DNA of 11,866 nucleotides from a virus (Monodnaviria; Loebvirae; Hofneiviricota; Faserviricetes; Tubulavirales; Inoviridae): the IMG/VR virus record IMGVR_UViG_2663762893_000001; one strand, given 5' to 3'. Shown piece after piece: positions 2,972 through 3,394 of the stretch. The notes beneath the pieces are model-generated. The model was not told the DNA's origin and ran no database searches. It worked only from the letters and a program-made list of their open reading frames with translations. The position numbers were made by a program, and so were the translations under genes. Positions within the stretch are counted from its first letter, which is position 1. Each line of letters begins with the position of its first letter.

Positions 2972-3394
2972 TCAATAATATGAATTTCTTCGGTGCCACC
3001 AATAAAGCAGACCGTATCCGACGATAAGAATTCCAAAAAACATCAGAGACATTCCCCAGCCAGTTCCGTACCACGAAACCATATCATCGAAAACCAACCC
3101 ACCCATTTCACGTACTCCGGCAGCTTCCTTAAGAATTGGTTTGAATACCGGAATCAGAAGGGCGATCGCCAGTGGGGCACCCCAGCGAACAAGACCTGTT
3201 TCCATTTTGATCCCGAAAAAGATCCCCGCACCGACAACAAGCAACCAGACTATCAGGCCAGGCGCAGTTTCCAGTGCTGTTTGCCATTCAACATCGAAAG
3301 TTTTCATTAACCAGGCAACAACTGCCAGACAGAAAGCAAATACGCCCACGACAACCAATTCAACGCCGCTTGTTTCGTTATTTCTACTCATCAT
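2972..3394 (-). CDS. Small integral membrane protein, 140 aa, about four predicted TM helices; function unknown
   Basis: AGGA Shine-Dalgarno 5 nt upstream of the ATG. Hydrophobic segments LVVVGVFAFCLAVVAWL, LIVWLLVVGAGIFFGI, APLAIALLIPVF, MSLMFFGILIVGYGLLYWW. Same orientation as, and downstream of, the regulator gene. Confidence 0.7.
   Translation of the reverse strand: MMSRNNETSGVELVVVGVFAFCLAVVAWLMKTFDVEWQTALETAPGLIVWLLVVGAGIFFGIKMETGLVRWGAPLAIALLIPVFKPILKEAAGVREMGGLVFDDMVSWYGTGWGMSLMFFGILIVGYGLLYWWHRRNSYY

What the first reader, a model, noticed from the sequence alone, without database searches (positions are those of the whole stretch)
2972..3394. Small four-helix membrane protein encoded downstream of the regulator
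A 140-aa protein made almost entirely of hydrophobic helices sits between the regulator gene and the low-GC cargo gene, in the same orientation, with normal GC content. It is not part of the recognisable morphogenesis module on the + strand. It could be a phage-encoded membrane factor, for example for superinfection exclusion, or a partner of the adjacent cargo protein.
Basis: inference. Interest (0 to 1): 0.45.

Follow-up and report, generated by a model that had tools for sequence, protein, structure and literature searches.

The report
Conserved filamentous-prophage inner-membrane accessory protein
This is a real, strongly conserved gene for a small four-helix membrane protein that most CUS-1-type and some UPΦ-type filamentous prophages of E. 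coli and its relatives carry just after their repressor gene; its function is unknown, and blocking entry of further phages is the most likely role.

Summary
The ORF is real. It lies inside a 9.6-kb inovirus prophage integrated at dif, of the CUS-1 type. It encodes a 139/140-aa protein with four predicted helices (AF2 pLDDT 84) and is under strong purifying selection (dN/dS 0.02-0.13). It matches only phrog_4174, which has no assigned function. There are no Pfam, NCBIfam, PADLOC or PDB matches.

It is not a partner of the low-GC gene. The same gene sits directly after the regulator in phages with at least 12 different cargo sets, or none. This holds across several regulator types, two structural modules and three replication-protein types, down to 27% identity.

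It is not a core gene. About one fifth of E. coli genomes sharing the upstream hairpin spacer lack it at near-identity search sensitivity. The literature reports that YpfΦ carries unrelated ORFs there. Distant homologues sit alone on conjugative plasmids and other mobile DNA.

Best reading, which is inference: it is an inner-membrane factor made in lysogens that excludes incoming filamentous phage or other foreign DNA. No exclusion phenotype, transcript or target has been shown. It is a new, uncharacterised family of a familiar kind, of moderate interest.

The parts
2972..3391 (-). Coding sequence of the small membrane protein.
   Evidence: ORF list. Start-codon comparison and dN/dS 0.02-0.13. 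phrog_4174 at E 1e-84. AF2 four-helix model with pLDDT 84. Hydropathy.
3400..3404 (-). AAGGA ribosome-binding site, 8 nt before the second ATG.
   Evidence: Sequence reading. Conserved in the spacer alignment.
3464..3479 (-). Spacer hairpin 1, GTCTCAggaaTGAGAC. A variant GTACCAcgaaTGGTAC keeps both changed base pairs.
   Evidence: Fold of the spacer: dG -26.2, z -4.1. Alignment of 13 spacers.
3425..3462 (-). Spacer hairpin 2, AACGTGCAGT-loop-ACTGCACGTT, followed by TCTTTATT. It looks like an intrinsic terminator. The stem is invariant in all 13 spacer variants.
   Evidence: It is invariant even where the membrane gene has dS 0.65-0.73.
3414..3470 (-). 18-codon upstream ORF (MRQTCSITNTARSLLCEF). 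It starts in hairpin 1 and runs through hairpin 2. It may be a leader peptide; this is speculative.
   Evidence: The ATG is kept in both hairpin-1 variants. No test of translation was possible.
2939..2967 (-). Perfect 13-bp-stem palindrome immediately after the stop codon. It belongs to this cargo variant, not to the conserved block.
   Evidence: Fold: dG -27.1, z -5.4. It is present only in loci with the same cargo.
3491..3937 (-). XRE/RstR-like HTH regulator, the presumed repressor, directly upstream.
   Evidence: Pfam HTH_3 at 1.6e-9. phrog_3557 transcriptional regulator. A weak, sub-threshold match to the NCBIfam RstR family model: E 7.9e-4, 19.7 bits against a cut-off of 80.
1767..2870 (-). 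Low-GC cargo gene (367-aa ORF; PGAP aa). It is one of many alternative occupants of the slot between the membrane gene and attP.
   Evidence: phrog_17621. GC 31.7%.
1668..1760 (.). Left prophage end. It holds two inverted dif-like sites (1668-1697 and 1734-1760) around a GC hairpin/terminator (1700-1734).
   Evidence: The equivalent region of L048 folds as one long forked hairpin, dG -57.9.
11234..11261 (+). Intact 28-bp E. coli dif at the right prophage end.
   Evidence: Exact match; none expected by chance.

Best explanation
Shown: the gene encodes a four-helix protein, predicted to sit in the inner membrane with N- and C-termini in the cytoplasm. It is the first gene, next to the regulator, in the accessory region of dif-integrating inoviruses of Enterobacterales (CUS-1 type and UPΦ type). 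It is kept under strong purifying selection while the regulator, the structural module and the downstream cargo are exchanged around it. It is dispensable for the phage.

Inferred: it is made in the lysogen or chronic carrier from the leftward (repressor) transcript. Expression is probably low, by read-through of the conserved terminator-like hairpin. It acts alone in the inner membrane to block a membrane step in the entry of incoming DNA. The most likely target is superinfecting filamentous phages.

The same protein (99% identical) serves phages with unrelated attachment proteins. The target is therefore more likely a shared host step, such as TolQRA-dependent uncoating and insertion, than a particular pIII. 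The conserved periplasmic loops 1 and 3, together with helices 3 and 4, would be the working surface.
For: The gene is real and constrained.

It has a four-helix model and a positive-inside charge pattern.

Its position directly after the regulator and divergent from gene II is conserved from 100% down to 27% identity. This holds across regulators of several types, two structural modules and three gene II types.

It is independent of the cargo, and some phages have no cargo at all.

It has no conserved protein partner in phage or non-phage contexts.

It is dispensable. Relatives keep the hairpins but carry other genes in its place. YpfΦ is 99% identical to CUS-1 over 7.1 kb yet is reported to carry unrelated ORFs there and still forms infectious virions (PMC4266046).

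Distant homologues occur alone on a conjugative IncHI2 plasmid, inside a Vibrio type IV secretion gene cluster, and on IS-flanked DNA. These are elements that also encode entry exclusion.

The neighbouring slot carries defence-type genes: AbiJ-like, a TIR domain and a REase.

Small polytopic inner-membrane proteins expressed from prophages are an established kind of exclusion factor, for example P22 SieA (PMC10883804). Inovirus genes with exclusion activity have been found experimentally (PMC6813254).
Against: There is no homology to any known exclusion protein. Pfam, NCBIfam and PADLOC give nothing, and hhalign against lambda RexB gives probability 0.06%.

No transcript, promoter or phenotype data exist. 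The simple promoter scan found no promoter for the gene, and a terminator-like hairpin separates it from the regulator.

Prophage copies are commonly tandem: median 2 places per genome, up to 16. Any block on re-integration is therefore at most partial, although CTX-type phages form tandem arrays from within the cell.

YpfΦ, which is reported to lack this gene, still gives partial protection against superinfection. The gene is therefore not the only route to immunity.
Confidence: 0.35

Rival explanations
1. A carrier-state or host-physiology factor. The protein adjusts the envelope so that the cell tolerates chronic virion extrusion (secretin and assembly stress), or it gives the host a fitness or virulence benefit. 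It has no role in excluding other elements.
For: CUS-1 and YpfΦ give modest in-vivo fitness benefits of unknown genetic basis, and the terminal ORFs are named as candidates. Homologues sit near type IV secretion genes, which also stress the envelope. The gene is accessory yet strongly conserved.
Against: It is on the repressor strand, opposite to the production operon. It would be expected to be made when virion genes are repressed. Other homologues lie in contexts with no secretion machinery: IS-flanked DNA and next to a Schlafen-like gene.
Confidence: 0.2
2. A membrane toxin or addiction factor that stabilises the episomal or integrated phage and is held in check by the upstream regulator.
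For: It is adjacent to a small DNA-binding protein. YpfΦ, which is reported to lack the gene, is easily lost as an episome. Small hydrophobic proteins are often toxic.
Against: The regulators next to an almost identical membrane protein are unrelated to each other: a 148-aa HTH, a 60-aa protein, and HTH proteins of only 36-40% identity. This argues against a specific antitoxin partner. The two genes are separated by 96 nt containing a terminator-like hairpin rather than being coupled. Homologues stand alone on plasmids. There are few polar residues inside the helices.
Confidence: 0.08
3. A core phage function, such as membrane anchoring of replication, minus-strand synthesis, Xer integration or assembly.
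For: It travels with the gene II / gene V replication block and the invariant hairpin that CUS-1-type and UPΦ-type phages share. In cargo-less phages it abuts attP.
Against: It is absent from related prophages that keep the regulator, the hairpins and gene II, and is reported absent from infectious YpfΦ. All standard morphogenesis genes are already accounted for on the + strand. Deeper homologues accompany different gene II types.
Confidence: 0.05
4. A partner or effector of the adjacent low-GC cargo protein.
For: It is adjacent and co-oriented. The cargo protein also has predicted membrane segments.
Against: The cargo is replaced by at least 12 unrelated gene sets, or is absent, next to the same membrane gene. 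Some of those sets are self-contained defence-type proteins.
Confidence: 0.04

Closest known systems
phrog_4174 (PHROGs v4, unknown function), and probably one of the ORFs of unknown function noted next to attL of CUS-1 ('orf1/orf1a')
   Same: Full-length profile match at E 1e-84. UTI89, an E. coli strain I recall to be of the serotype in which CUS-1 was described (O18:K1:H7; the serotype comes from my own knowledge, not from a tool result), has the gene at 96% identity in the same place. The YpfΦ review lists two attL-side ORFs of unknown function in CUS-1.
   Different: Nothing functional is attached to the family. The equation with 'orf1a' is my inference, because the original CUS-1 paper could not be read. 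The UPΦ paper reports that one of three reverse ORFs (h3) is present in 221 of 229 prophages. I cannot tell whether h3 is this gene or the 60-aa regulator.
Lambda RexB
   Same: Size about 140 aa (144 against 139/140). Four predicted membrane helices. Encoded downstream of the repressor on the lysogenic strand.
   Different: No sequence relationship: hhalign probability 0.06%, and no RexB match among the Pfam families scanned. There is no RexA-like conserved partner. The helices lack the polar residues expected of a channel.
P22 SieA and similar prophage inner-membrane exclusion proteins
   Same: A prophage-borne, non-essential inner-membrane protein that acts alone. [quoted passage not shown]
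   Different: No detectable homology. The host virus is a filamentous ssDNA phage whose entry route (pilus, TolQRA) differs from tailed-phage ejection. No phenotype is known.
Pf phage PfsE
   Same: A protein encoded by a filamentous prophage that prevents superinfection by acting at the inner membrane (PMC8764522, as listed).
   Different: From my own knowledge, PfsE is a very short peptide encoded in the core operon that targets type IV pilus assembly. Here the protein is 140 aa with four helices, lies in the regulator-side accessory region, and serves phages with different attachment proteins.
Entry-exclusion inner-membrane proteins of conjugative elements (F TraS, SXT/R391 Eex)
   Same: From my own knowledge, these are small polytopic inner-membrane proteins of about 140-170 aa carried by mobile elements. 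Distant homologues of the present protein lie on an IncHI2 conjugative plasmid and inside a Vibrio type IV secretion cluster.
   Different: No sequence match to any Pfam family. The plasmid homologues are not in a known exclusion locus. Other homologues lie on DNA with no conjugation genes.

Membership tests
phrog_4174 | Significant full-length match to the family profile | tested here: met
   E 1.1e-84; residues 2-140 match profile positions 1-139 of 140.
Lambda RexB family | Sequence or profile homology to RexB | tested here: not met
   hhalign of the 27-sequence family alignment against lambda RexB gives probability 0.06% and E 0.77. No Pfam family matched at E <= 1.
Lambda RexB family | Four-helix membrane protein of about 144 aa encoded after the repressor on the lysogenic strand | tested here: met
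   This is resemblance of form and position only.
Lambda RexB family | Works with a co-encoded RexA-like sensor | tested here: not met
   The downstream gene is hypervariable or absent, and no conserved partner exists.
Prophage superinfection-exclusion inner-membrane proteins (SieA, Imm, gp15 type) | Homology to a described exclusion family | tested here: not met
   No match in Pfam, NCBIfam, PADLOC, other PHROGs or PDB sequences. Fold searches were non-specific.
Prophage superinfection-exclusion inner-membrane proteins (SieA, Imm, gp15 type) | Expressed from the prophage, and sufficient to block entry of a challenging phage | not testable with these tools
   This needs expression data and infection assays. 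Only position and strand are known.
Inovirus core morphogenesis and replication proteins (pI/pXI, pIII, pVI, pVII/pIX, pVIII, pIV, pII, pV) | Present in all functional relatives, and encoded in the rightward operon | tested here: not met
   It is on the opposite strand. All core functions are assigned elsewhere in the window. The gene is missing from related prophages.
Conjugative entry-exclusion proteins (TraS / Eex) | Homology to TraS or Eex, or location in a known exclusion locus | tested here: inconclusive
   No Pfam match. One distant homologue lies within a type IV secretion cluster but on the opposite strand. Others lie in non-conjugative contexts.
Type II toxin-antitoxin pair with the upstream regulator | A cognate, co-varying antitoxin that is translationally or transcriptionally coupled | tested here: not met
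   Unrelated regulators lie next to proteins that are 99% identical. A 96-nt spacer with a terminator-like hairpin separates the genes.

The most novel reading that the evidence does not exclude
The protein could be a general inner-membrane entry blocker shared by filamentous phages and conjugative plasmids. It would disable a common host import step, for example the TolQRA-dependent step. It would then protect against several unrelated filamentous phages, and possibly against Tol-dependent colicins. Its level would be set by a leader-peptide attenuator: the 18-codon ORF that runs through the invariant terminator hairpin.
Probability: 0.12. Interest if true: 0.6.

Novelty: new member of a known kind. 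Interest (0 to 1): 0.36.

Why it matters
CUS-1-type and UPΦ-type filamentous prophages are common in extra-intestinal pathogenic E. coli such as UTI89, NU14 and UM146, and in other Enterobacterales. They have been linked to modest virulence gains, and the responsible genes are unknown.

This gene is the most constant accessory gene of these phages, yet it has never been studied. If it excludes incoming filamentous phages or other mobile DNA, it would help to explain which phage variants can co-reside at dif. It would also add a new protein family to the small set of known inovirus exclusion factors.

It is also a practical landmark. The DNA just downstream of its stop codon is a hotspot where these phages carry interchangeable genes, several of them defence-like.

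Tried and rejected
- **Family scans.** Pfam, NCBIfam and PADLOC gave nothing for the protein.
- **Sequence search of PDB.** Only spurious hits to single membrane helices.
- **Lambda RexB.** The profile comparison showed no relationship.
- **INPHARED phage collection.** No match by DNA or by protein.
- **Rfam on 1600-4200.** Nothing meaningful.
- **Promoter scan.** No promoter for the gene. The terminator scan missed the spacer hairpin because its loop is longer than the scan allows.
- **Conserved partner.** None was found next to distant homologues.
- **Y. pestis.** A search for a Y. pestis member of the family found none. I could not fetch YpfΦ itself to see what replaces the gene there.
- **CUS-1 paper.** The original paper is not held.
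- **Lipoprotein or signal peptide.** Rejected on inspection: there is no lipobox, and Cys22 is not conserved.

Full report
**What the window is**

The window runs from hipB-hipA into a filamentous prophage.
- The XerC arm of dif (GGTGCGCATAAT) occurs at 1668-1679, and a complete 28-bp dif at 11234-11261. The element between them is about 9.57 kb.
- On the + strand it has gene II (Phage_CRI plus G2P_X_C), a DNA-binding protein, a coat protein, a pIII-like protein, DUF2523 (pVI-like), Zot/pI and a secretin.
- On the - strand it has an XRE-type HTH regulator (3491-3937), the ORF in question (2972-3394) and a low-GC gene (1767-2870).
- The same element exists as a 9,565-bp circular record in E. 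coli TUM14759. It is deposited as a plasmid and is evidently the episomal replicative form. It carries the ORF.
- E. coli UTI89 has the same prophage at the same site. From my own knowledge, UTI89 is of the O18:K1:H7 lineage in which the CUS-1 prophage was first described.

**Is the ORF a gene?**

Yes.
- It occurs at 234 places in 128 of 5426 complete E. coli genomes. Gene II of the same phage occurs at 215 places in 115 genomes.
- Against the window copy, orthologues show 16 synonymous to 1 non-synonymous difference (L003) and 54 to 21 (L011). dN/dS is 0.02-0.13 throughout.
- In nearly all orthologues the first ATG of the window ORF is another codon. Translation therefore most likely starts at the second ATG (3389-3391), 8 nt after an AAGGA.

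**The protein**

- Hydropathy gives four segments, the third weaker and proline-rich.
- AF2 on close homologues alone was poor (pLDDT 64). With 27 diverse family members it gave pLDDT 84.3 and pTM 0.70. The helices are 7-33, 37-64, 68-92 (kinked at the conserved prolines) and 112-138, with a less confident loop at 93-111.
- Across the family, loops 1 and 3 are net acidic, while loop 2 and the C-terminus are net basic. This fits N-in/C-in with loops 1 and 3 in the periplasm.
- Conservation rises from the variable N-terminus and helix 1 to the nearly invariant helices 3 and 4. The family-wide conserved residues are P74, P86, W108-Y109-G110 and G126.

**Family and distribution**

- The only family match is phrog_4174, which has no assigned function.
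- A word-indexed search of 5.8 billion proteins found 49 relatives, and every one that carries a source name is from Enterobacterales.
- An exhaustive HMMER search of 1.84 billion cluster representatives found only 39 proteins at E <= 0.001. The distant full-length ones are 109-159 aa (most 120-138) and share the same motifs.
- It is a small, narrow family.

**Context, which is the informative part**

I surveyed 60-odd loci from E. coli genomes, other genomes, IMG/VR and metagenomes.

1. *Position.* The gene always lies directly after the regulator and divergent from gene II. The regulators include the 148-aa HTH, HTH proteins only 36-40% identical to it, and an unrelated 60/89-aa protein.
2. 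*Structural module.* The same protein (99% identical) is found in phages with the CUS-1 structural module. It is also found in phages with a different module (G7P-2, major coat protein, attachment protein, DUF5455, and a secretin only 27% identical). That second module matches the published UPΦ group, which shares only genes II and V with YpfΦ (PMC7307601).
3. *Depth of synteny.* Homologues at 38% and 27% identity keep the same position in inoviruses with other gene II types.
4. *Cargo.* Downstream, similarity stops exactly at the stop codon. At least 12 different gene sets follow. They include a DpnII/MboI-type nuclease with DUF6953, an AbiJ_NTD4-DUF7014 protein and a CAP12/Pycsar-type TIR protein. 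They also include a zinc-ribbon plus membrane-protein pair, and the 367/374-aa family of the window and UTI89. In L032 and L033 nothing follows, and the stop codon abuts the attP-derived sequence. The gene is therefore not a partner of the low-GC gene.
5. *Dispensability.* A junction query found the conserved spacer in 158 E. coli genomes, but a near-identity (megablast) search found the membrane gene in only 128. In ETEC-2264 and in IMG/VR locus L064 the hairpins are followed by an unrelated soluble 131-aa protein. In RIVM_C029670, a UPΦ-type phage, they are followed by a 46-aa ORF. The YpfΦ review states that YpfΦ is 99% identical to CUS-1 over 7.1 kb but carries unrelated ORFs (YPO2271/2272) at the attL side. 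YpfΦ is nevertheless infectious. No Y. pestis member of the family turned up.
6. *Homologues outside phages.* Distant homologues (24-35% identity) stand alone on mobile DNA. The sites are an IncHI2 plasmid next to a CBASS operon, a Vibrio type IV secretion cluster, IS-flanked DNA, and a position next to a Schlafen-like gene. They have no shared neighbour.

**Transcription signals**

- The 96-nt spacer after the regulator folds into two hairpins (dG -26.2, z -4.1).
- Hairpin 1 has a variant in which two base pairs are changed on both sides.
- Hairpin 2 has a 10-bp GC-rich stem followed by TCTTTATT. Its stem is invariant in all 13 spacer variants, including those where the membrane gene has dS 0.65-0.73.
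- It looks like an intrinsic terminator. However, conservation at the sequence level goes beyond what a terminator needs, and I cannot explain that.
- No sigma-70 promoter was found between it and the gene. Read-through at a reduced level is therefore the simplest reading.
- In the divergent phage L050, a textbook terminator and a good -35/-10 pair precede the gene. I read these by eye from the sequence printed.
- An 18-codon ORF begins in hairpin 1 and runs through hairpin 2. It could be a leader peptide, but nothing tests this.

**What it most likely does**

The firm conclusions are as follows.
- It is a real protein, predicted to lie in the inner membrane.
- It is an accessory gene of the phage's repressor side.
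- It acts without a fixed partner.
- It is not needed to make virions.
- It is strongly selected.

The established kind of gene that fits all of these is a prophage exclusion factor in the inner membrane, as P22 SieA is (PMC10883804). Inoviruses are known to carry exclusion genes (PMC6813254; the PfsE paper is listed).

One protein serves phages with unrelated attachment proteins. A shared host step, such as TolQRA-dependent entry, is therefore a likelier target than a specific pIII. This is inference.

There is no homology to RexB or to any other exclusion protein, and the fold searches were uninformative. Tandem arrays are the rule, so any block is not absolute.

I put the exclusion reading at about 0.35. 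An envelope or host-fitness role comes next at 0.2. The toxin, core-function and cargo-partner readings are well behind.

**Comparison with the literature**

- The gene has been seen but not studied. It is probably one of the two attL-side ORFs of unknown function in CUS-1.
- The UPΦ paper notes three reverse ORFs next to dif, one of which (h3) is in 221 of 229 prophages. I cannot decide whether h3 is this gene or the small regulator.
- No function has been proposed.

**Verdict**

The cargo-partner idea is rejected. The exclusion idea is plausible but untested. This is a new, uncharacterised family of a familiar kind, of moderate interest.

Noticed in passing
window 1767-2971, and the equivalent slot in L001-L035 and L047-L049: The stretch between the membrane gene's stop codon and the attP-derived hairpin is a hypervariable cargo slot with at least 12 alternative gene sets. 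Several are defence-like: AbiJ_NTD4+DUF7014 (PDC-S32), a CAP12/Pycsar TIR domain, and a DpnII/MboI-type nuclease (PDC-S35, Argonaute-associated REase) with DUF6953. Some phages have no cargo.
   Followed up: partly
window 3425-3479 (- strand): The stem of hairpin 2 is invariant in 13 spacer variants, even where the adjacent coding sequence has dS of about 0.7. This is more than a terminator should need. It might be a protein-binding site or a single-strand DNA signal such as a minus-strand origin or packaging signal. The hairpins stay with the phage even when the membrane gene is replaced (L064, L067).
   Followed up: partly
window 3414-3470 (- strand): An 18-codon ORF (MRQTCSITNTARSLLCEF) starts in the loop of hairpin 1 and spans hairpin 2. 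Its ATG is kept in the compensatory hairpin-1 variant. It may be a leader-peptide attenuator.
   Followed up: no
window 1668-1760 and 11234-11261: The left end holds two inverted dif-like sites around a GC hairpin, and the right end holds an intact dif. This is the layout expected from CTX-type integration of a folded single strand by XerC. The equivalent L048 sequence folds into one long forked hairpin (dG -57.9).
   Followed up: partly
L033 6890-6950; L048 7913-7970; L022 and L027 just downstream of the membrane gene: A three-hairpin cassette (CCGTGGGAAACCACGG / GTTCGGGTGTCACAGAACCCCGAAC / CGCTTCGCGG) is identical in phages whose membrane proteins are only about 38% identical. It lies upstream of the gene in some and downstream in others, which suggests a mobile module-boundary element.
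   Followed up: no
L005 (IncHI2 plasmid p23141-mcr) 9001-9500: The 35%-identical plasmid homologue is followed by sequence visibly similar to the phage's attP-side hairpin element. It lies about 600 bp upstream of a type II CBASS operon. It may be a remnant of an integrated inovirus-like element.
   Followed up: no
NZ_CP128883.1 (L004), 9,565 bp: A record deposited as an untypable plasmid of E. coli TUM14759 is the complete circular form of this phage. Its cargo gene is annotated at a different length across the record origin.
   Followed up: partly
L067 (E. coli ETEC-2264) 5092-10092: A unit of regulator, gene II and a truncated DNA-binding gene is repeated in tandem at dif (at least two full units and the start of a third, cut off by the end of the stretch), with no structural genes within the 10-kb stretch examined. 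This resembles a satellite or defective array of the RS1 kind.
   Followed up: no
window 1767-2870; UTI89 L007 9775-10884; cargo proteins of L008 and L029: The window's low-GC protein is 29% identical to the 374-aa UTI89 protein. It shares an N-terminal membrane helix and an 'NKGK..KNV.I.(V/F)P' motif with the 155- and 159-aa cargo proteins of other variants. These may form one diversified family.
   Followed up: no
E. coli complete genomes: Copies per genome have a median of 2 and reach 16, which reflects tandem arrays at dif.
   Followed up: no
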